Origin: Thermoprotei archaeon
GTDB lineage: Archaea > Thermoproteota > Thermoprotei > QMSL01 > B3-G16
Length of the DNA: 64,000 bases
Direction: 5' to 3'
Assembly: GCA_021162845.1 (NCBI GenBank)
Contig: JAGGXX010000054.1
Location: 4,537-68,536, forward strand
Position numbers and translations under genes: made by a program
The notes under the pieces: generated by a model
Databases searched by the model: none
Seen by the model: the letters and a program-made list of their open reading frames with translations, nothing else
What the model was told of the DNA's origin: nothing
In this document: positions 42,692-51,862 of the stretch, in pieces
Numbering within the stretch: position 1 is the stretch's first letter
Layout of the letters: each line of letters opens with the position of its first letter

Positions 42692-43816
42692 ATGAGGAAG
42701 GGTGGTAATTTAAGCGGGGTAACGAAATACGACCCGGATAAGGCCTATGAGGGGTATACGCTGTTCTGCCATACTTACGATCCACCAAACGTTGCCCAAG
42801 GCGAGCTTGCACACATGTACCTTATCGATATGAATGGAAACATAGTTCATGAATGGACCGCCAAGACTGCAGTTCAACTACTGGAGCTCTTGCCTAATGG
42901 TAATCTGTATTACACGACAAGGGATAGATCAGACATTAACTACGCCGGGTTGAGGGAGATAGATCCGAAGAGTAATGTGGTCTGGTCCTTTCATTGTAGG
43001 ATAGACCACGATTTTCATGTAATGGATAATGGCCACCTGATGATACATTGCATCATAGATAAAATGGCTCCCGAAATAGGGCCGGAATTAAAACGCTGCC
43101 CATATATCATTGAGATAACCCGAGAGAAGGAGCTTATCTGGGAGTGGTTCGGAGACGAGCACATAAAGGAGCTAGAGGAACTTTGTGGGATAAAATTCCC
43201 TCTTAAGGCCTCTCAGTTCAAGGGTTACCCGGAACATATGAAGAGGCATCTCCTCTTCGATTGGGCCCATAACAATACCTGTGAGGTATTGCCAGATAAT
43301 CCGTCTGGACGAAAGGATTCGAGGTTTAAGGCTGGCAATATCCTCTTCAGTTATAGGAGCTTGGATGTCATAGGGGTAATTGATCGAGAGACCGGAGAGA
43401 TCGTTTGGGCATGGGGCCCAGGCATCTTAGATGGACAGCATCAGCCAACCATGCTTCCTAACGGGAACATACTCATATTCGATAATGGGACGCGCCGCGG
43501 TTGGTCTCGCGTAATAGAGGTAAACCCCCTGGAGGAGGAGATAGTCTGGGAGTATACGGCTACGCCTAAGGAGAGCTTCTTTAGTCCTTACATATCAGGC
43601 GCTCAGCTATTGCCTAATGGGAACATATTCATCTGTGAAGGAGGGCCTTGCCGACTTTTCGAGATTACACGAGATGGGGAAATAGTCTGGGAGTACCATA
43701 GCCCTTATAAGGGGACAAAGGGAACTCATGGGATCTATCGCGCGACGCGGTATTCCCCAGAGTACGTTAAGCCATTACTCGAAAGAATAAAGGAATCTTC
43801 TGAACAAGAGGGCTAA
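42692..43816 (+). CDS. arylsulfotransferase (ASST)-like beta-propeller protein
   Basis: Repeated blades with LPNGN(L/I) and D/EIVWEW/Y motifs (LLPNGNLYYT, MLPNGNILIFDNG, LLPNGNIFICEGG, GEIVWEYHS). Fold-level resemblance only. Confidence 0.4.
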   Translation: MRKGGNLSGVTKYDPDKAYEGYTLFCHTYDPPNVAQGELAHMYLIDMNGNIVHEWTAKTAVQLLELLPNGNLYYTTRDRSDINYAGLREIDPKSNVVWSFHCRIDHDFHVMDNGHLMIHCIIDKMAPEIGPELKRCPYIIEITREKELIWEWFGDEHIKELEELCGIKFPLKASQFKGYPEHMKRHLLFDWAHNNTCEVLPDNPSGRKDSRFKAGNILFSYRSLDVIGVIDRETGEIVWAWGPGILDGQHQPTMLPNGNILIFDNGTRRGWSRVIEVNPLEEEIVWEYTATPKESFFSPYISGAQLLPNGNIFICEGGPCRLFEITRDGEIVWEYHSPYKGTKGTHGIYRATRYSPEYVKPLLERIKESSEQEG

Positions 43817-44101: not shown

Positions 44102-44455
44102 ATGTCGTTATCTTACGTTAAGGGAAGTTTGAAGAACGTAGATAAGGACGGAGACGGAATCGCAGATCATCTTCAGTTTAAAATGATTAACTACATAGGG
44201 AGCGGCTCAGCTTACGTTTCCGACTTTAAGGTTCTAGTAGACGGAGAAGACATGACTGATAAAGCCACTTTGAAGATAGCTGGTCAAGCCCCTAAACCTG
44301 TTAAATCATTAACTTACGTAACAGCGTATTACGGTGATGAGATATTGGTTGAAATTAAGCATGACGGTAAGATTAAGCCCGGCTTACATAGAGTTGAATT
44401 AAGCGCTAGGATCGAATGGTATCCCATCAGCGTTAAGTTCGAAGATACGGTATAA
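44102..44455 (+). CDS. hypothetical protein
   Basis: 117-aa ORF with no recognisable motif. AT-rich surroundings. Confidence 0.3.
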   Translation: MSLSYVKGSLKNVDKDGDGIADHLQFKMINYIGSGSAYVSDFKVLVDGEDMTDKATLKIAGQAPKPVKSLTYVTAYYGDEILVEIKHDGKIKPGLHRVELSARIEWYPISVKFEDTV

Positions 44456-45284: not shown

Positions 45285-46085
45285 TTAGATAAAGCCCATC
45301 ACGTTTTCAAGCTTAGATAGTACAACCTCTATATCTACTTCCCTTAGGTTCGGCGTGTAGATCAATAGCCCTCCTCGACTATCCAGCTTACAGGTTATCC
45401 TCTTACCTATCTCCGGCAGTAGTGGAGTCACAAAGGTGATAGAGGATATCTCATGAGCTGATGACTTCACCTTGGAGTAGATATCGGTAATATCCAAGCC
45501 TTCTCTTTTGATGGAGACCTCATCCAGGACAGTATCACCTATCTGAGCCCTCTTAAACGTCGCCCTTATTATGTTGCCTGAGACCTCATGCTCCTTTGCG
45601 GTAACCCACTTCTCAAGGGCATTGATGTGACTACGCTCTAGATGTAAGGGGGATGCTGAGGTCGTGTCGCCGTAAAGCCTTAATGAGGCTAGCTGTGCGA
45701 TGGCCCTAGCAATACGTTTATTCGGAGCATCAAATATGATGAGAAGACCTGAGATGACCCTAATCCAGACATCGTGCTCCATATAGATCTCGTATTCCTC
45801 TATCCTGCGTTCCCCTCCACGTACATATGAGAACTTCCCACGAAACGTATACGAGAAACGTAATCTAGCATCCTTAGTGGTACCCCTTATGCTGGATAAA
45901 CGCCCATTTAGTCCCACTACGATCTTGGAGAGATTTTCAAGTCTTCGTAATGATGCCTTATCGCCGGCTTCCTCGAAATAAGCCTTAAGCTCTTTAAGCG
46001 AAGCCCCATTTAAAGTTGATAAGATATCCTCAGGGGCCTGGGTTCTCCCTCTCGGAAGTAGAAATAAAGAGAGAGCCCTAGGCAT
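45285..46085 (-). CDS. hypothetical protein
   Basis: 266-aa ORF with no motif recognised. Confidence 0.3.
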   Translation of the reverse strand: MPRALSLFLLPRGRTQAPEDILSTLNGASLKELKAYFEEAGDKASLRRLENLSKIVVGLNGRLSSIRGTTKDARLRFSYTFRGKFSYVRGGERRIEEYEIYMEHDVWIRVISGLLIIFDAPNKRIARAIAQLASLRLYGDTTSASPLHLERSHINALEKWVTAKEHEVSGNIIRATFKRAQIGDTVLDEVSIKREGLDITDIYSKVKSSAHEISSITFVTPLLPEIGKRITCKLDSRGGLLIYTPNLREVDIEVVLSKLENVMGFI

Positions 46086-46109: not shown

Positions 46110-46210
46110 ATACCTTCGAATATATTAAGCTATTCATTACGACGAAATAGAGCAATACGACATGATGATGGGATTCTCTTGTACTAAAAGAGCTCGCCCC
46201 TAATGTGCCT
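46110..46210. repeat. interrupted second copy of the 43976..44015 element
   Basis: See above. Confidence 0.35.
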
Positions 46211-46212
46211 TC

Positions 46213-48966
46213 TCAATCAGTGCTTAGCTCTAGAATGGAGTCTTCCTTCCTCAGACCAGCACACGAGGGGCACAGCACGCGCTTTCTGAAGAACGTCCTC
46301 TTAATTATCGCGCACTCTGGACATATAGGCCTGCCACAGGATGAACACGTAAGGGCATGTGAAGGGCATAGTTCTCTACCACACGATGAACAACGGATAA
46401 TATGGGATGGACAAACTGGCGCGTTACATATGGAACAGAGATGGACATGATCGGAACAGAGGGGTTTGCCACATACGACGCAGAGGCTTACATGCTTTAC
46501 ACAGAGAGGTGATGCACAATATGAGCACTTTATGATGTGAGATGTACACAGGGGAGCGCCACAGTGCTTACATAATGGTACCTCCACGAGTGATGTAATG
46601 GTTGATAGTGATTTCTCGACTAGCTTACCGCAGACGATGCATCTACCGAAGGAAGCCTTAAGCGAGTACGGATCGATAAGCATACTCACTGAGGAGGTCC
46701 CATATGCTAACTTAAGGCGATATCTCAATATGAACACGCGCCCTTCCTCAACGATCCTTAGGTCTGGACGGACTTCTATTTCCTGAACGGCCGCCTTCAG
46801 GAAAGCCTCATATTTCCTAACAAGGGCTTCTCGCTTTTCCTCATAAGACCTTTCGATAGTATCTAATTCATCGATTAAGCTTTTTATGGCCTTCTTAAGC
46901 TTTAATACGTTCTTCTCAGCGAGTCTAAGCTCGCGCTTAAGCTTCCTGAGCTCCTTCGTTACGTCTCGCGTGTTCAGGCGCCTTTTCCTCAGCTCTTCAC
47001 GGATTTCCTCTAGCCTCTGAACCCTATGCTTTAAGGACTTATAATCGCTCTCATGAAGCTTCAACTCGGCTTCGAGCACAGGCTTTGTGTTAAGCAATTC
47101 TCTCTTCTTTAGCTCAAAGCGAAGCCTTAACTCCTCCTCTTCCCTCTCAAGTTCGCCCTTTACCTTTTCTTCCAGACGCTTCATTAAAGGCGTTAGCTCG
47201 CTTTTATCGAATGTAGCCACCTCTAAGGGTGCTACGTAATAGACTTTGGTCTTCAACAGCTGGCGTAACATGGAGATTACTTCATCTCGAGGGGGAGAAG
47301 AAGTTGATGTGCTTTGCGCCTGGAAATCATAGAGGTCATACACAAGAGGCAGATCCCTGACCTCACCCAAGTGCTCCATAAGCTGTAACTTTTTACCCTT
47401 CATCACCACTAAGACGTGTTCTCCTCGGGATAACTGGAGCTTCTTCAGCCTGAGCCTGAGGGCCGAGCGCAGTAGGTAATAGGGTAGTGCTTCCGCCTCT
47501 ATATCAAAACCCACGATCTTCAATCCTAGGGCTTTGAACTTCCGAAGAACTTCTTCCTTCGAGAGTTTAGGCCTTAAAATGGGTAGGCTTTCCGATGGGG
47601 CCTTGATGTCCTTTAAGGCCCTTTTAGGTTTAACTATGGGTCTCTTCCCGACAAGCATACGTATCTCGGATGGCTGCAGTGGGCCTCTATGGTAAGTTAT
47701 CAGCCAGCGTGGCTCAACTATCACGGTCCTTCCGGATTCGTAATTATGATATAGGAAGGTGCGTGGCCTTAGCCTAGGGATTATCTCGGTTAAATCCTCG
47801 TCTATATTAAGGCCTTTCTTGACCTTTGCTATGTCCTGTCTGGTGGCTAACCTCCCCACAAATCTATGAGCCGCATTGGACAATACCTTGTAGTCTATAT
47901 CCGCTGGATTCTGAGTGGCCAACAGACAACCTAGACCGAAGGCTCTGCCCTGTTTTATCAATAACATGAGGCCAGCTTTAGATGGAGGCTTTCCAACGGG
48001 AGGTATGAATCCCACGAGTTCATCGAAGTAAAGGAGAAGGCGTAGGCTTGAGGTACCGCCTTGTCTTAGTAGCCACCTATATAGCTCTTGAAGAAAAGCG
48101 CCTATGAAGAACTGCTTCTCTTCCATAGTCGTCATGAACCTTAAGTCAATGACCGATATCGTGCCGCGCTGACTGAACTTCCCAAAATTAATCATCTCGC
48201 CATCGAGCCAGCTCTTGTAAGTCGGGTGAGAGAGGAGGACGTTTAGGCTACGGGCTAACTTGAGCCTAGCCCTCTGTGGTATAAAATCCTCAACGGCGAG
48301 GGAGCCTATTTGATCGAATGGAGGGTTGATGACTTCCTGAACTAAATCCTCAAGTGATATGGATTCCCCATCTAGCCAGTGGGTTTCTATTATTTGGGAG
48401 AGAAGAGCGTGTTCTTGGGTGTTCCTCTCGCCATATCCAGCCAATCTCAATAAAAGGGACACCGTATTGTCTATGGCATCGTAAAGGACCGTCTTGTCCT
48501 CGGCCACTATTTCCCTTATGTTTGGAATAGGATCCAGCGATGGTCTAATGGAAAGAGGGACGCCTGTTGAGCTACGAGGGGTGTATATTACGACACGGAC
48601 GTTCTCTACATAGTCACATATCTTCTCGCGGGATACCCCCCACTTGGATAGTTCCCGTAAATACAATCCCCTTAGCCTTTCCGCATACTCCCCAGGGTCG
48701 ATACCCCGCTCCTTAGCTTCAAGGTCCGACCAAGGACGGAAATCTAGATCAGGCGAGGCTATAGCGAGCGCGCCTATATCGCCCTTGGGGTCTATTGCTA
48801 TAATGGAATAACCCTTAAGGGCTAGCTCCTCCACTATGGCCTTACATAAGGTAGTCTTCCCCGACCCTGTTGCTCCCAGAACCACCGTATGCTTCAGAAG
48901 GGTATCCGTGTTAATACCGAAGGTCTCGCCACTAGACGTGCGCCCTATCACGATGACATCGCTCAT
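46213..48966 (-). CDS. HerA/FtsK-superfamily (DUF853/DUF87-like) P-loop ATPase fused to a long coiled coil and a C-terminal array of ~7 tandem 15-aa Cys3His zinc-knuckle repeats
   Basis: Walker A VVLGATGSGKTT, then IAIDPKGDIGAL (a DxKGD motif of DUF853/HerA-like ATPases). Walker B LLLYFDELVG. Residues ~560-720 are a heptad-rich, charged coiled coil (ELEREEEELRLRFELKKRELL...). C-terminus: CKHCGAPLCTSHIIK CSYCASPLCVKHVSL CVVCGKPLCSDHVHL CSICNAPVCPSHIIR CSSCGRELCPSHALT CSSCGRPICPECAII. Confidence 0.6.
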   Translation of the reverse strand: MSDVIVIGRTSSGETFGINTDTLLKHTVVLGATGSGKTTLCKAIVEELALKGYSIIAIDPKGDIGALAIASPDLDFRPWSDLEAKERGIDPGEYAERLRGLYLRELSKWGVSREKICDYVENVRVVIYTPRSSTGVPLSIRPSLDPIPNIREIVAEDKTVLYDAIDNTVSLLLRLAGYGERNTQEHALLSQIIETHWLDGESISLEDLVQEVINPPFDQIGSLAVEDFIPQRARLKLARSLNVLLSHPTYKSWLDGEMINFGKFSQRGTISVIDLRFMTTMEEKQFFIGAFLQELYRWLLRQGGTSSLRLLLYFDELVGFIPPVGKPPSKAGLMLLIKQGRAFGLGCLLATQNPADIDYKVLSNAAHRFVGRLATRQDIAKVKKGLNIDEDLTEIIPRLRPRTFLYHNYESGRTVIVEPRWLITYHRGPLQPSEIRMLVGKRPIVKPKRALKDIKAPSESLPILRPKLSKEEVLRKFKALGLKIVGFDIEAEALPYYLLRSALRLRLKKLQLSRGEHVLVVMKGKKLQLMEHLGEVRDLPLVYDLYDFQAQSTSTSSPPRDEVISMLRQLLKTKVYYVAPLEVATFDKSELTPLMKRLEEKVKGELEREEEELRLRFELKKRELLNTKPVLEAELKLHESDYKSLKHRVQRLEEIREELRKRRLNTRDVTKELRKLKRELRLAEKNVLKLKKAIKSLIDELDTIERSYEEKREALVRKYEAFLKAAVQEIEVRPDLRIVEEGRVFILRYRLKLAYGTSSVSMLIDPYSLKASFGRCIVCGKLVEKSLSTITSLVEVPLCKHCGAPLCTSHIIKCSYCASPLCVKHVSLCVVCGKPLCSDHVHLCSICNAPVCPSHIIRCSSCGRELCPSHALTCSSCGRPICPECAIIKRTFFRKRVLCPSCAGLRKEDSILELSTD

Positions 48967-48985
48967 GATCGACTATCCCCATATA

Positions 48986-51862
48986 CTACGGGTTTATAAC
49001 GATATATTCGCCTTTCCGCTTACCATAGGCATAGCCTAAGGCAGTGCCACAGGCTACCCCTAATACGGCTATAACCGATGATATTACAGGCCATGTCCTC
49101 TTCGCTCCCTCATATCTCTCCTTCACTTTCGATAGCTCCTCGTACTTCGCGGTAAGTGTTTGATTCCAAGCCCTTAACGAGTCATATTTTCCGAGAAGTG
49201 TATGATAGTCCTCCAGTAATTGTACATACGTGACATTAAGCTGGAGCAGCTTAGATCTCAATTGCTCGTAATCCCGAGTTAGGTTTCCTAAGTTCATTAG
49301 CGCCAGTGTGTAATTTGTGCTTAACTGGTTGAAGTTAGCGTTGAGACGAAGGTATTTATTCCTTAGCTCCAAGTAATCCTTCTCTAGTCTCTGGAATTCC
49401 TCAAGCAGTGAGCTATACGTCTCATTAAGCTCGGCATAGGTGTCCTTTAACGAGTTGTATTTTGTGTTAAGGGAGTTATACTTAGACAGAAGCGAGTTAT
49501 AGTTCCGCTTAAGTGAGAGGTACTTCTCCACCTCCCTCTCATAAAGGGATTTATACTTGATGTCCGTAAAAGCTGGAACGTCGATTATAAGGGATGTGAG
49601 ACCGTAAACCGTGATATCGCTCTTCCCGACGAGGAGGTCATCATCATATACCTCTATGGTAAGTGAGGTGACGTTGACTAAGTTTAGCTTAACTAGACCC
49701 TCGTCGTTTGCCTTACCGGCGAATAACAAGCGTCCATCTCCGTAGACCTTAATATTAGCGAAGGGAACGACATCGCCCTTTACGGGATCGATAATTCGTA
49801 TATAAACCCCGCTTATGAGCTTCTTAAGATGCACCTCAAGATATGTGATCCCATCCAGTTCCACGGATGGATTTAGATATTCCGTGTAATTCTCGGCACT
49901 CACCTTCACCTGATATATCCCTGCAGGGAGGTTGAAGCTTACACATCCGTTTACGTCAGTGTATGAGGATGAGAGGACAGTACCCCGATTGTCCATGACA
50001 ATGACTTGGGCGTTGGGTACGGGATCCCCTGTAAGCAGATCTACCACATGTGCTCTTAGTTGTATCGGTTCCATGATCATCTTCACGGACTCAGGGGAAA
50101 CAGTTAAGTCCAAGGACGTAACGGTAGGGGCATAACCTTCGTGTTCAGCTATTAAGGTGTAACGCCCACCGCTCAACGTTAGGTTTAGCCAACCCTTAGC
50201 ATTAGTAAGGCCATTAATTATCGTGGTATTACCTTCTATGAGAACCCTAATGTTCACCCCGGAAACGGGCTTTGAGTCTATATCCAGCACCTGGATAAAG
50301 AGCTGTCTACGCTTCGTCATTAAGGCCAGCAGATAACCTACAGTTGCCTTGACGCTCTCAGGGGTGCTCTGGTCTAGAACGGAAAACGCGAAAATTCCTT
50401 TTCCACACATGACCGCAGCAACGGCTTGGTATCTTTCATCTCCCACTGTCACGAACGTATCATAGAGCGAGAAGAGGCAGGGTGCGGAGGCCTTAAGGCT
50501 ATTGGGAGCCATCACGGCAGCCCATACATTCCATGGAGATATGTTCAGCTCATTAACGAGCTTTAGGCCTATATCCGTTAGGACAGCCGCTAATGGTCTA
50601 TCCGTCATCCCATTCCAACAAAAGCCACCCACCGTAAAGTTACTAGCCGCGGATAGGAACGCAGCTAATCCCCCTTCTTCCAGGAGTGACCAGTAGTGCG
50701 CGTGACCATTAGCTACGATGGAGAAAGGATAGCCCGCGATGTTCACTAAGATCCAGCCCTTATCCCTTACACATAGAGCTAGATCCGATATGTATGCATA
50801 TGTAGGAGCAGTGCCATCTGTGATTAAGTACTCATCAGGGATTGGCATGACCGCGCCGTGAAGGTTTATCAGGGTAATGCCGCGAACATCCGATGATATT
50901 AGCCTGTACAGATCAACACTTGAGTTGACTACGTGGTAACTTAAGTTCATGGAGCTTAACTGATCCTCGATATAGGCTAAAGTAGAGGGCATATCGAGCC
51001 CGTACCAGGCGGTGTCATTTATGGCTAATAGGTATACATCCGGTTCCGAGTTAAGTAATACGTGAAGGTATATCAGTGAAGTAAGGGCTATATCCGCCTT
51101 AACGAAATCAGGCTCATGCCATACGCCTACATGCACATAGTAACCCTTACCTAAGGAATAGGCGGCAACGGTCTTGAACGCCCCAAGGTACCCTATGGCC
51201 TCGGTGGAATATAGCGTAAAGAAGGGGTCCACGTTAGTCGAGATGCTGTACGTTGCCGAGACCTTAGTAGGCAATGAGGTACCAGCGATCTTAGAGGCAT
51301 TAGCACCCTCAAAGGTCAACATCGCGTAGTCTAAGGAGCCTGCCCTCTCGATATAACCATTGACTTTAACGCTAAAGTTGAGGGCGTTGAAGAACGTGGA
51401 GACACCAGTTTCCCCTAACTCTACTGATAAATGTTCCTCATCATTAAACGCGTAACTGAACGGTAGGCCCGCTAGGTTAATGAACGTGAATCCTCGCTTA
51501 CTCATATTGACCGCAAGGTCCCTCAAAAAGTTAAGAGCGCCTTCTTCCCCTGAGAGAGCATAGGGCATGGGTACCGGTATCGCGGAACCATGGAGGTTTA
51601 TTATCAGATCCCCTGTAGATGCATTCGCAAGTATGCTCCTAAACGAGGTAAAGTTCCTTATTACCGATATCTCCATCCCATTATCCGTGAGATAGGAAGA
51701 CAGGGGTTGTAGTAGAGAGGGCGATACGTCCCTAAAAGCCCCTGAGGGAATGAATATGAGATATGCACGTCCCTCATATCCATTTCTCGATGAGGTGACG
51801 AGGAAGGGGGTCGCAAGTGAAATTAGCATAAGGGTTAATAAGGTGAGACAATGAATTCTCAT
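48986..51862 (-). CDS. secreted surface (S-layer-associated) glycoprotein with N-terminal signal peptide, beta-rich ectodomain including carboxypeptidase-regulatory-like domain, C-terminal coiled-coil stalk and single C-terminal transmembrane anchor (tetrabrachion-like architecture)
   Basis: Signal-peptide-like MRIHCLTLLTLMLISLATPFLVTSS. More than 20 N-x-S/T sequons. GVNIRVLIEGNTTIINGLTNAKGWLNLTL is a prealbumin-like fold. A ~150-aa coiled coil with YNSL/KYNSL repeats follows. C-terminal TM WPVISSVIAVLGVACGTALGYAYGKRKG. Confidence 0.6.
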   Translation of the reverse strand: MRIHCLTLLTLMLISLATPFLVTSSRNGYEGRAYLIFIPSGAFRDVSPSLLQPLSSYLTDNGMEISVIRNFTSFRSILANASTGDLIINLHGSAIPVPMPYALSGEEGALNFLRDLAVNMSKRGFTFINLAGLPFSYAFNDEEHLSVELGETGVSTFFNALNFSVKVNGYIERAGSLDYAMLTFEGANASKIAGTSLPTKVSATYSISTNVDPFFTLYSTEAIGYLGAFKTVAAYSLGKGYYVHVGVWHEPDFVKADIALTSLIYLHVLLNSEPDVYLLAINDTAWYGLDMPSTLAYIEDQLSSMNLSYHVVNSSVDLYRLISSDVRGITLINLHGAVMPIPDEYLITDGTAPTYAYISDLALCVRDKGWILVNIAGYPFSIVANGHAHYWSLLEEGGLAAFLSAASNFTVGGFCWNGMTDRPLAAVLTDIGLKLVNELNISPWNVWAAVMAPNSLKASAPCLFSLYDTFVTVGDERYQAVAAVMCGKGIFAFSVLDQSTPESVKATVGYLLALMTKRRQLFIQVLDIDSKPVSGVNIRVLIEGNTTIINGLTNAKGWLNLTLSGGRYTLIAEHEGYAPTVTSLDLTVSPESVKMIMEPIQLRAHVVDLLTGDPVPNAQVIVMDNRGTVLSSSYTDVNGCVSFNLPAGIYQVKVSAENYTEYLNPSVELDGITYLEVHLKKLISGVYIRIIDPVKGDVVPFANIKVYGDGRLLFAGKANDEGLVKLNLVNVTSLTIEVYDDDLLVGKSDITVYGLTSLIIDVPAFTDIKYKSLYEREVEKYLSLKRNYNSLLSKYNSLNTKYNSLKDTYAELNETYSSLLEEFQRLEKDYLELRNKYLRLNANFNQLSTNYTLALMNLGNLTRDYEQLRSKLLQLNVTYVQLLEDYHTLLGKYDSLRAWNQTLTAKYEELSKVKERYEGAKRTWPVISSVIAVLGVACGTALGYAYGKRKGEYIVINP

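What the first reader, a model, noticed from the sequence alone, without database searches (positions are those of the whole stretch)
46216..46660. Tandem array of 15-aa C-x2-C-G-x-P-L-C-x2-H repeats at the C-terminus of the ATPase
Six to seven consecutive repeats read CKHCGAPLCTSHIIK / CSYCASPLCVKHVSL / CVVCGKPLCSDHVHL / CSICNAPVCPSHIIR / CSSCGRELCPSHALT / CSSCGRPICPECAII. Each repeat supplies three Cys and one His. Consecutive repeats could form interleaved C-x2-H-x3-C-x2-C zinc knuckles, giving a beads-on-a-string zinc array. I cannot place this spacing in a known zinc-finger family such as zinc ribbon, B-box or RanBP. The array could bind nucleic acid or mediate protein interaction.
Basis: seen in the sequence. 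Interest (0 to 1): 0.6.

Follow-up and report, generated by a model that had tools for sequence, protein, structure and literature searches.

The report
Open-ended chain of interlocked zinc fingers
The tail of an archaeal HerA-type ATPase carries six exact 15-residue Cys3His repeats that most likely fold into one continuous chain of seven interlocked zinc sites, a widespread but unannotated prokaryotic module built by repeating the core of FYVE/PHD/AN1/piggyBac-type two-zinc fingers.

Summary
The 917-aa protein (window 46213-48966, minus strand) has six C-x2-C-x4-C-x2-H-x3 units in exact 15-aa register (aa 799-888). A CxxC half-site lies upstream (aa 776) and another downstream (aa 899). All 23 Cys of the tail sit at ligand positions.

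Three lines point to a cross-brace chain, in which the CxxC of unit n and the CxxH of unit n+1 share one zinc:
- In natural variants these two half-sites are lost together: 34 observed against 12.3 expected, with 0 of 2000 shuffles reaching 34.
- A confident AlphaFold2 model (pLDDT 97-98 in the array) superposes locally only on cross-braced FYVE/PHD/AN1 fingers.
- The piggyBac transposase CRD has the same CX2CX11CX2CX4CX2H spacing and an NMR-proven cross-brace.

This predicts seven zinc ions in the window protein.

No Pfam or NCBIfam model covers the array. The nearest named relative is the C-terminal region of Siva, which has two units and binds three zinc ions.

The array is conserved across the archaeal ATPase family with 2 to 9 or more units. 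It also occurs with up to 27 units next to SNF2, UvrD, Mrr and caspase-like domains. Its function is inferred only. I favour a rigid interaction rod attached to DNA motors.

The parts
46213..48966 (-). Whole gene, 917 aa plus stop: HerA/FtsK-type P-loop ATPase, then a beta-rich domain with an inserted coiled-coil hairpin, then the zinc chain.
   Evidence: ORF. Pfam DUF87 scores 43.2 bits (cut-off 23.2) and HerA_C scores 36.8 bits (cut-off 22). The full-length AF2 model has pLDDT 85.4.
47647..48966 (-). ATPase domain, aa 1-440, with the Walker A motif GATGSGKT at aa 31-38.
47212..47559 (-). Middle alpha/beta domain with long beta-strands, aa 470-585. A disordered linker at aa 442-458 precedes it.
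   Evidence: DSSP and pLDDT of the AF2 full-length model.
46795..47205 (-). Two long helices, aa 588-661 and 667-724, read as an antiparallel coiled-coil hairpin.
   Evidence: AF2 DSSP. There are weak coiled-coil-type Pfam, NCBIfam and PADLOC hits in this region (CCDC22_CC, SMC, DndD, LmuB).
46642..46788 (-). Beta-strand 'pre-array' domain, aa 727-775, ending in the conserved G-R just before the first Cys.
   Evidence: AF2 strands 727-732, 735-755, 758-765 and 770-775. G774 is nearly invariant. An HMM built from the N-terminal modules of unrelated array proteins matches this region in family members.
46573..46641 (-). N-terminal half-site C776-x2-C779 plus a 19-residue loop. It is the predicted partner of C807/H810.
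   Evidence: C776 is invariant and C779 is at least 90% conserved in A2. In homologues where this CxxC degenerates, the CxxH of unit 1 is also lost (P0038).
46528..46572 (-). Unit 1, CKHCGAPLCTSHIIK, aa 799-813.
46483..46527 (-). Unit 2, CSYCASPLCVKHVSL, aa 814-828.
46438..46482 (-). Unit 3, CVVCGKPLCSDHVHL, aa 829-843.
46393..46437 (-). Unit 4, CSICNAPVCPSHIIR, aa 844-858.
46348..46392 (-). Unit 5, CSSCGRELCPSHALT, aa 859-873.
46303..46347 (-). Unit 6, CSSCGRPICPECAII, aa 874-888. The fourth ligand is Cys instead of His.
46261..46302 (-). C-terminal cap, aa 889-902: the basic beta-hairpin KRTFFRKRVL followed by the half-site C899-x2-C902. It is the predicted partner of C874/C877.
   Evidence: AF2 strands 887-891 and 894-898. 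Across 119 proteins the cap loop averages 3.7 K+R against 0.6 D+E. The cap aligns without gaps to the Siva C-terminus.
46216..46260 (-). Low-confidence C-terminal tail, aa 903-917.
   Evidence: pLDDT is below 50 for aa 906-917.

Best explanation
The array is a single continuous chain of cross-braced zinc sites, not a string of independent fingers. Each 15-residue unit supplies two knuckles: 'a' is C-x2-C and 'b' is C-x2-H. The a-knuckle of unit n and the b-knuckle of unit n+1 clamp one zinc, so every zinc staples two neighbouring units together. An upstream CxxC supplies the missing partner at the start of the chain, and a downstream CxxC behind a basic beta-hairpin supplies it at the end.

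For n units this gives n+1 zinc ions. The window protein is therefore predicted to bind seven:
- Zn1: C776, C779, C807, H810
- Zn2: C799, C802, C822, H825
- Zn3: C814, C817, C837, H840
- Zn4: C829, C832, C852, H855
- Zn5: C844, C847, C867, H870
- Zn6: C859, C862, C882, C885
- Zn7: C874, C877, C899, C902

Such a chain can be lengthened or shortened by whole units without leaving unpaired ligands.

Function is inferred, not shown. The chain forms a rigid rod with a conserved surface. It hangs from a beta-domain with a coiled-coil hairpin behind a HerA-type hexameric DNA-translocase ATPase. I propose that it serves as an interaction or tethering arm, with its basic cap (or, in some homologues, a membrane anchor) at the tip. 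I do not think it acts as a catalytic element or as a generic nucleic-acid clamp.
For: (1) Architecture. Six units, exact register, two flanking CxxC, and every tail Cys accounted for.

(2) Conservation of the scheme. 76 of the 120 best homologues keep an N-flank, n units and a cap, with n from 2 to 9 or more. An exhaustive search found 323 cluster representatives, with arrays of up to 27 units.

(3) Natural ligand-loss experiments. P0012, P0026, P0038, P0056 and P0095 have lost the CxxC of one unit together with the CxxH of the next. P0004 has lost the cap CxxC together with half of the last CxxC. The census found 27 segments with the pattern [a lost, b kept][a kept, b lost]. It found none with the reverse pattern and none with clean whole-unit loss. 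In the permutation test on 1548 units, a(i) with b(i+1) co-defects numbered 34 against 12.3 expected, and 0 of 2000 shuffles reached 34. The other two pairings were not enriched. The co-defects occur in 25 proteins.

(5) Experimental precedent. The piggyBac CRD motif CX2CX11CX2CX4CX2HX4CX2C has the same spacing. NMR shows that C559/C562 pair with C582/H585 on one zinc, and C574/C577 pair with C590/C593 on the other (PMC5861402). The AN1 pattern is CX2CX9-12CX1-2CX4CX2H....

(6) Ligand chemistry. The fourth ligand is H in 69%, C in 21% and D in 10% of 1130 units, as expected for a zinc site.

(7) Siva. The last two units plus the cap align without gaps to the Siva C-terminus (38% identity). The Siva C-terminus has six Cys pairs, and the protein is reported to bind three zinc ions (PMC3208582).

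Against: - No metal analysis or solved structure exists for any member.
- I could not read the model coordinates. The pairing in the AF2 model is inferred from fold matches, not from measured S-S distances.
- The co-loss statistic counts related sequences and is not a true probability.
- Single-ligand losses without a partner loss are common: 32 b-type and 20 a-type. Sites therefore tolerate three ligands, and the co-loss rule is not absolute.
- In the piggyBac CRD the last CxxC follows the His by 4 residues and closes the second site. The positionally equivalent CxxC in this array (3 residues after the His) must instead open the next site, so the precedent covers only one of the two sites.
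- The functional part is guilt by association. The array is electrically near neutral across all proteins and only mildly basic in this family. That favours neither nucleic-acid binding nor membrane binding.
- Gene neighbourhood is not conserved beyond the Thermoprotei clade.
Confidence: 0.7

Rival explanations
1. Beads on a string, within-unit sites. Each 15-aa unit is an autonomous mini-finger that binds its own zinc with its C-x2-C and C-x2-H, rather like a retroviral knuckle. The two flanking CxxC would form a separate seventh site or stay unpaired.
For: This is the simplest reading of a C3H unit. The ligand count also gives 7 zinc ions if the flanks pair. The common pattern [a lost, b kept][a kept, b lost] could be read as two broken sites whose orphans, CxxH-x3-CxxC, form a new site.
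Against: - Loss of both knuckles of the same unit is not enriched (12 against 16.7 expected), and clean whole-unit loss was never seen.
- The flanking CxxC would have to pair across the whole array, which is implausible for arrays of 20 or more units that keep both flanks.
- P0004 has lost the cap CxxC entirely yet keeps the N-flank CxxC.
- The fold matches are to cross-braced fingers, not to sequential ones.
- The piggyBac CRD, with the same spacing, is cross-braced.
Confidence: 0.12
2. Each zinc is held by the C-x2-H of unit n and the C-x2-C of unit n+1, only 3 residues apart. Classical zinc-ribbon-like sites form at the two ends (N-flank with the first CxxC, last CxxC with the cap).
For: This model also uses every ligand and explains why flanking CxxC are needed.
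Against: - Co-loss of b(i) with a(i+1) is not enriched (9 against 12.3 expected). The diagnostic pattern [a kept, b lost][a lost, b kept] was seen 0 times, against 27 for the opposite pattern.
- In P0004 the cap pair is gone while the preceding CxxC, its partner in this model, is intact.
- A 3-residue linker between two knuckles has no counterpart among the fold matches.
Confidence: 0.04
3. The array is not a zinc array. The cysteines form disulfides or bind iron, either rubredoxin-like or as Fe-S clusters. Cytoplasmic disulfides are known in some hyperthermophilic Thermoproteota (this is from my own knowledge, not tested here).
For: The host is an uncultured Thermoprotei archaeon. CxxC knuckles can bind iron. 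No metal data exist for this family.
Against: - The fourth position is His or Asp in 79% of units, and neither can form a disulfide.
- The same array occurs in mesophilic bacteria and Nitrososphaera.
- The spacing matches no Fe-S cluster motif but does match zinc fingers.
- Siva, the named relative, binds zinc.
Confidence: 0.05
4. Functional rival with the same structure. The chain is primarily a nucleic-acid-binding array that loads or guides the HerA-type translocase, and in other proteins the SNF2, UvrD or Mrr enzymes, on DNA.
For: - Every catalytic partner domain except peptidase C11 acts on DNA.
- The piggyBac CRD, the closest spacing match, binds DNA sequence-specifically.
- In the window family the array is mildly basic (median +1 per unit) and the cap is strongly basic.
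Against: - Across all 1130 units the net charge is 0.0 per unit. Several long arrays are acidic, at -0.7 to -1.3 per unit in P0013 and P0010.
- Most cross-braced fingers bind proteins or lipids (PMC5861402 discussion).
- Five homologues carry a TM helix after the array, four of them at the extreme C-terminus, which suggests tethering.
Confidence: 0.25

Closest known systems
piggyBac transposase C-terminal cysteine-rich domain (PDB 5lme; PHD-like cross-brace finger)
   Same: The ligand spacing CX2CX11CX2CX4CX2H is identical to two consecutive units here. NMR shows the first CxxC pairing with the CxxH, which is the pairing inferred for this array. It also gives a weak profile hit (E 0.055).
   Different: It is a closed two-zinc domain ended by a CxxC 4 residues after the His. 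It has a single copy and sits in a eukaryotic transposase, where it acts as a sequence-specific DNA binder. Here the central element is repeated six times and the chain has its own caps.
FYVE and Rab-effector (rabphilin/RIM/Slp) zinc fingers
AN1-type zinc finger (PF01428)
   Different: The closing H-x5-H-x-C is absent. The Pfam E-value is 0.34 (11.5 bits against a cut-off of 27.9). AN1 binds two zinc ions only.
Siva C-terminal cysteine-rich region (PF05458; described as 'B-box-like plus zinc-finger-like')
   Same: It is the best Pfam hit for the tail (E 3.6e-4, profile positions 124-169 of 173). A Siva sequence that I recalled from memory, and confirmed as Siva by Pfam at 311.7 bits, has an N-flank CxxC, two 15-aa units and a 10-residue loop before CxxC. 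It aligns without gaps to units 5-6 plus the cap at 38% identity. Siva is reported to bind three zinc ions and has six Cys pairs in its C-terminus (PMC3208582), which fits the n+1 rule.
   Different: The score of 20.7 bits is below the Pfam cut-off of 26.2. Siva has only two units, and both use Cys rather than His as the fourth ligand. Siva's N-terminal regions (SAH, DDHR) are absent here. Siva is an animal apoptosis adaptor. As far as I found, no structure or ligand map of the Siva region is published.
HerA/FtsK-clade hexameric ATPases (Sulfolobus HerA, DndH/DptH, VirB4, TrwB)
   Different: None of the matched solved structures aligns beyond the ATPase region (313 residues for 4d2i_B, at most 348 for any top hit), and NCBIfam equivalog scores are far below their cut-offs (44.7 against 800 for HerA_antiphage). 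No NurA, Sir2 or DUF4297 partner is nearby.

Membership tests
Cross-braced (interleaved) zinc fingers: the PHD/FYVE/RING/AN1/MYND fold group | Ligand pairs 1 and 3 bind one zinc, and pairs 2 and 4 bind the other (PMC7614390). | tested here: met
   The test is indirect. Natural variants lose CxxC(n) together with CxxH(n+1): 34 against 12.3 expected, with 0 of 2000 shuffles reaching 34. There is no direct metal-ligand map.
Cross-braced (interleaved) zinc fingers: the PHD/FYVE/RING/AN1/MYND fold group | Three-dimensional fold similar to solved members. | tested here: met
Cross-braced (interleaved) zinc fingers: the PHD/FYVE/RING/AN1/MYND fold group | A closed domain with exactly two zinc ions. 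| tested here: not met
   There are 14 ligand pairs in an uninterrupted 15-aa register. Homologues have 2 to 27 units.
Siva (PF05458) | Pfam gathering score for the whole protein. | tested here: not met
   The score is 20.7 bits against a cut-off of 26.2, and only profile positions 124-169 are matched.
Siva (PF05458) | C-terminal Cys pattern: CxxC, then 15-aa C-x2-C-x4-C-x2-C units, then a 10-residue loop, then CxxC. | tested here: met
   An ungapped 45-residue alignment places all 8 ligands in register at 38% identity. The Siva sequence used was validated by Pfam.
AN1 zinc finger (PF01428) | Full pattern C-X2-C-X9-12-C-X1-2-C-X4-C-X2-H-X5-H-X-C and the Pfam cut-off. | tested here: not met
   The spacing of the first six ligands is met, but the H-X5-H-X-C ending is absent (pattern). 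Pfam gives 11.5 bits against a cut-off of 27.9.
FYVE domain | A Pfam FYVE match and the signature basic motif around the third Cys. | tested here: not met
   No FYVE family appears among the Pfam hits even at E up to 1. The similarity is structural only, at Z no higher than 6.0.
piggyBac-type CRD | CX2CX11CX2CX4CX2HX4CX2C at the C-terminus of a DDE transposase. | tested here: not met
   The first six ligands match exactly. The linker after the His is 3 residues, not 4, and there is no transposase domain.
HerA/FtsK-superfamily ATPase (Pfam DUF87 and HerA_C) | Pfam gathering scores and a P-loop fold like HerA. | tested here: met
Known anti-phage HerA systems (HerA-Sir2/Nezha, HerA-DUF4297, DndH) | An equivalog-level match and the cognate partner gene adjacent. 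| tested here: not met
   NCBIfam HerA_antiphage scores 44.7 against 800. PADLOC hits are generic for the ATPase. The neighbours are a surface protein and an unknown 266-aa protein.
Any member: actual zinc binding | Metal content and tetrahedral S3N/S4 coordination. | not testable with these tools
   This needs ICP-MS, EXAFS or a solved structure.

The most novel reading that the evidence does not exclude
The array is a distinct repeat-protein architecture: an open-ended 'zinc zipper'. A 15-residue unit can be added or removed at will because each zinc is shared between neighbouring units, giving a rod whose length is set by the unit number (2 to 27 or more units observed). Together with its coiled-coil hairpin and beta-domain it forms a mobile module. 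Archaea and bacteria attach this module to DNA motors and nucleases (HerA-like, SNF2, UvrD, Mrr) and to a caspase-like protease, possibly as the sensing or tethering arm of uncharacterised genome-maintenance or defence systems. The two-unit cysteine-rich C-terminus of the animal apoptosis adaptor Siva would then be a short eukaryotic descendant of this module.
Probability: 0.4. Interest if true: 0.75.

Novelty: new variant of a known kind. Interest (0 to 1): 0.6.

Why it matters
Cross-braced zinc fingers are described in reviews as closed two-metal domains. An indefinitely extensible version would be a new structural principle for metal-stabilised repeat proteins. In it every zinc links two 15-residue units, and arrays reach more than 25 consecutive sites. 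It would be of interest for zinc-finger classification, for protein design (rigid rods of programmable length) and for estimates of cellular zinc demand.

The analysis also gives a testable ligand map for the structurally uncharacterised cysteine-rich end of Siva.

In addition, it flags an unannotated module in at least 323 protein clusters (at 50% identity). The module sits next to DNA translocases, helicases and nucleases, including a conserved ATPase of Nitrososphaera and Thermoprotei whose function is unknown.

Tried and rejected
- A word-indexed homologue search with the tail alone found nothing. The exhaustive HMMER search was needed instead.
- Tandem Repeats Finder found no DNA repeat, so I dropped replication slippage as an explanation for this gene.
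- Pfam and NCBIfam searches on the tail gave only sub-threshold hits: Siva, zf-C2HC5, DUF2180, AN1 and zinc ribbons. I rejected B-box, zinc-ribbon, RanBP and DZR membership.
- The AlphaFold-database fold library was not available, so I could not see how deposited models of homologues are annotated.
- A genome scan with the tail alignment failed for lack of a conserved stretch. The scan with the full protein mostly recovered ATPase-only bacterial relatives.
- The 'tail-only' 182-aa hit P0127 is a gene fragment on a 593-bp contig, not a stand-alone protein.
- Literature searches for the spacing, for Siva-like prokaryotic domains, and for zinc-finger arrays with SNF2, Mrr or HerA found no description of this array.
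- PADLOC did not place the window protein, its two neighbours or the class-I array protein in a known defence system.
- Neighbourhood analysis gave no functional clue beyond the Thermoprotei clade.
- The 266-aa neighbour has no Pfam or PDB relative.
Full report
**1. The observation**

The region lies in one long ORF on the minus strand, window 46213..48966, encoding 917 aa. In the translation, C-x2-C-x4-C-x2-[H/C] starts at aa 799, 814, 829, 844, 859 and 874.
- Five units end in His. The sixth ends in Cys.
- One CxxC precedes the array (C776, C779) and one follows it (C899, C902), behind the basic stretch KRTFFRKRVL.
- 23 of the protein's 26 cysteines lie in the last 160 residues, and all 23 fall at positions of this scheme.
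- The motif occurs six times in this reading frame and nowhere else in the six-frame translation of the 64-kb window.
- The repeat exists only at the protein level. Tandem Repeats Finder finds nothing. The 45-bp units are 49% identical on average.

**2. The protein that carries it**

The first 440 residues are a HerA/FtsK-type P-loop ATPase.
- Pfam DUF87 and HerA_C both pass their cut-offs.

After a disordered linker (aa 442-458) the model shows, in order:
- an alpha/beta domain with long strands (aa 470-585);
- two very long helices (aa 588-661 and 667-724), which I read as an antiparallel coiled-coil hairpin;
- a further set of strands (aa 727-775);
- the cysteine array.

**3. Conservation**

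A homologue search returned 779 relatives. They come from uncultured Thermoprotei, Nitrososphaera, Woesearchaeota and others. Of the 120 best, 76 keep a C-terminal array built the same way: an N-flank CxxC, n units of 15 residues, a last unit ending in C-x2-C, a basic loop and a final CxxC. The number n ranges from 2 to at least 9. The 99%-identical and 58%-identical orthologues also have six units.

Among 56 Nitrososphaera-type orthologues the non-ligand positions of the array are conserved at 0.74 (fraction of the commonest residue). The ATPase scores 0.87 and the middle region 0.59. The surface of the array is therefore under selection.

**4. Which ligands share a metal**

Three regular schemes use all ligands:
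- (A) CxxC and CxxH of the same unit;
- (C) CxxC of unit n with CxxH of unit n+1, a cross-brace.

Natural variants discriminate between them.
- In P0012 and P0026, unit 2 has lost its CxxC but keeps its CxxH, and unit 3 keeps its CxxC but has lost its CxxH. Only scheme C turns this into the clean loss of one site with no orphan ligands.
- P0038, P0056 and P0095 repeat the pattern and also lose the N-flank pair together with the CxxH of unit 1.
- P0004 has lost the cap CxxC together with half of the last CxxC, while the preceding C-x2-C is intact.

I then took 268 proteins from two searches and examined all in-register degenerate segments.
- The pattern [a lost, b kept][a kept, b lost] occurs in 27 distinct segments.
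- The reverse pattern occurs in none, and clean whole-unit loss occurs in none.

A within-chain permutation test covered 341 chains and 1548 units.
- Co-defects for scheme C numbered 34 against 12.3 expected, and 0 of 2000 shuffles reached 34.
- Scheme A gave 12 against 16.7 expected.
- Scheme B gave 9 against 12.3 expected.
- The scheme C cases come from 25 proteins, nearly all representing different 50%-identity clusters.

Related sequences inflate such counts, so I treat this as strong support and not as a probability.

**5. Structure prediction**

The tail (aa 740-917) was modelled with a 20-sequence alignment. The result has pLDDT 91.5 and pTM 0.78, with 97-98 throughout the array and two-residue beta-bridges just before every knuckle.

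No solved structure matches the whole chain.
- The best Foldseek match has E 0.047 and TM below 0.25.

Local matches over 45-57 residues are almost all cross-braced two-zinc fingers:
- PHD fingers;
- the AN1 finger of Cuz1.

A profile of the tail finds rabphilin-3A (E 0.018) and the piggyBac CRD (E 0.055) as its best PDB sequence hits. I could not read coordinates, so the ligand pairing within the model is inferred from these matches.

**6. Experimental precedent**

- The piggyBac CRD has the motif CX2CX11CX2CX4CX2HX4CX2C. By NMR, C559/C562 bind one zinc together with C582/H585, and C574/C577 bind the other with C590/C593 (PMC5861402). The first six ligands have exactly the spacing of two consecutive units here, and the proven pairing is scheme C.
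- The AN1 pattern (CX2CX9-12CX1-2CX4CX2H..., PMC9570247) fits as well.
- A review describes cross-braced topology as a property of two-metal finger domains (PMC7614390).

What is unusual here is that the central C-x2-C-x4-C-x2-H element is repeated, so the brace never closes until the cap.

For the window protein this predicts seven sites:
- C776/C779 with C807/H810
- C799/C802 with C822/H825
- C814/C817 with C837/H840
- C829/C832 with C852/H855
- C844/C847 with C867/H870
- C859/C862 with C882/C885
- C874/C877 with C899/C902

**7. The nearest named relative**

The best Pfam hit of the tail is the C-terminal end of Siva. It scores E 3.6e-4 and 20.7 bits against a cut-off of 26.2, over profile positions 124-169.

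I recalled a human Siva sequence from memory and confirmed it as Siva at 311.7 bits. It reads CSSC-x9[30 protein letters not shown]-x10-CTSC: a flank, two 15-residue units and a cap. It aligns without gaps to units 5-6 plus the cap of the window protein at 38% identity, with all ligands in register.

The literature calls this region 'B-box plus zinc-finger-like' (PMC3935273). It also reports six cysteine pairs in the C-terminus and three bound zinc ions (PMC3208582 citing Nestler 2006). Three is the number the n+1 rule predicts.

The window protein is not a Siva family member. It falls below the cut-off and lacks the N-terminal Siva regions. Its array and the Siva C-terminus do appear to be the same kind of element.

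**8. Wider distribution**

An exhaustive HMMER search of 1.84 billion cluster representatives with the tail gave 323 hits at E up to 1e-3 and 105 at E up to 1e-10. Arrays reach 27 units in register (P0147). That protein contains 11 identical copies of a 30-residue two-unit block, a sign of recent tandem amplification.

The 1130 distinct units give this consensus: C-[SA]-[IV]-C-G-[KE]-x-[LVF]-C-x-[ED]-[H 69%, C 21%, D 10%]-x3. Their mean net charge is 0.0.

The architectures fall into classes:
- about 70 representatives have an unannotated N-terminal region of about 330 residues followed by long arrays;
- a second class is fused to DUF87/HerA ATPases, Mrr-type endonucleases, UvrD helicase plus a DUF559 nuclease, or a clostripain-like peptidase;
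- a third class consists of giants of 1400-2100 residues that begin with an SNF2 helicase.

Two proteins of the first class are encoded 3-4 bp downstream of an SNF2 helicase gene. One of them also has Mrr and PLD nuclease genes beside it.

An HMM of the first-class N-terminal region matches the coiled-coil and beta-domain region preceding the array in the SNF2 giants, in the fusion class and in the window family. The array therefore travels as part of a larger module. The coiled-coil portion of those matches should be treated cautiously.

**9. Genomic context of the window gene**

The gene lies between a 958-aa surface-type protein and a 266-aa protein.
- The 958-aa protein has a signal sequence, CarboxypepD_reg repeats, a coiled coil and a C-terminal TM helix.
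- The 266-aa protein has no detectable relatives in Pfam, PDB or PADLOC.

This trio is conserved in two related Thermoprotei loci. In L003 the 266-aa protein is 60% identical and the surface protein 31% identical. In Nitrososphaera, a Woesearchaeon and another archaeon the ATPase stands among unrelated housekeeping genes. The closest genome in GTDB is an uncultured Thermoprotei archaeon at 58% identity.

**10. How it probably works**

Supported by the evidence above: a cross-braced, unit-extensible chain of n+1 metal sites, very probably zinc.

Inferred only: because each metal ties adjacent units together, the array should fold cooperatively into a stiff rod whose length scales with the number of units.

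On what the rod does, the evidence is circumstantial.
- It is attached to DNA motors and nucleases.
- Its surface is conserved within orthologues.
- It is near neutral overall, and mildly basic in this family at a median of +1 per unit.
- Its cap loop is strongly basic (3.7 K+R against 0.6 D+E).
- In five homologues a TM helix follows the array, in four of them at the extreme C-terminus.

I favour a protein-interaction or tethering arm projecting from the ATPase ring. Direct nucleic-acid binding is the main alternative.

**11. Verdict**

- The claim that the array fits no known family is only half right. No model annotates it, but it is a repeated form of a well-known finger core and a relative of the Siva C-terminus.
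- I found no description of such an open-ended cross-braced array in the searchable literature. The library is incomplete, however.

Noticed in passing
window 48986-51862 (-), 46213-48966 (-), 45285-46085 (-); L001 3124-9639; L003 3140-9691: A three-gene cluster is conserved in the Thermoprotei clade. It consists of a surface protein of about 950 aa (signal peptide, CarboxypepD_reg repeats, coiled coil, C-terminal TM), the ATPase, and a protein of about 268 aa with no Pfam, PDB or PADLOC relative. The small protein is 60% identical between loci, which is more conserved than the ATPase.
   Followed up: partly
L074 3075-7316; L076 3229-8488: Array proteins with an unannotated N-terminal region (P0121, P0147) start 3-4 bp after an SNF2-family helicase gene. 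In L076 an Mrr-type endonuclease gene follows, and a PLD-nuclease gene lies further downstream, beyond two unannotated genes. Giant proteins such as P0158 and P0183 fuse SNF2 to the same module. This may be an undescribed SNF2-linked system.
   Followed up: partly
P0147 aa 451-780: Eleven identical copies of a 30-residue block (two units, CNSCKKQFCQTDRTR-CAECDLEFCRNDAGE) indicate very recent tandem amplification in steps of two units. This contrasts with the old, diverged units in the window gene.
   Followed up: no
P0010, P0013, P0048, P0148 C-termini: A hydrophobic, TM-like helix follows the array cap within a few tens of residues and sits at the extreme C-terminus. These homologues are probably tail-anchored, with the zinc chain next to the membrane. 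Their long arrays (P0010, P0013) are acidic rather than basic.
   Followed up: partly
P0005 aa 821-865; P0012 aa 822-836: In several units the fourth ligand is Asp instead of His (C-x2-D). This occurs in 10% of all units and sometimes in three consecutive units.
   Followed up: no
window 46205-46450 (+): An 81-aa ORF runs antisense to the array. It is His- and Gly-rich because it mirrors the Cys and Pro codons, and I judged it an artefact of the repeat rather than a gene.
   Followed up: no
window 44102-44455 (+) and 42692-43816 (+): The nearby genes encode a C-glycoside deglycosidase beta-subunit-like protein (CGDB, E 2.5e-9) and an arylsulfotransferase-like beta-propeller protein. Both seem unrelated to the finding.
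   Followed up: no
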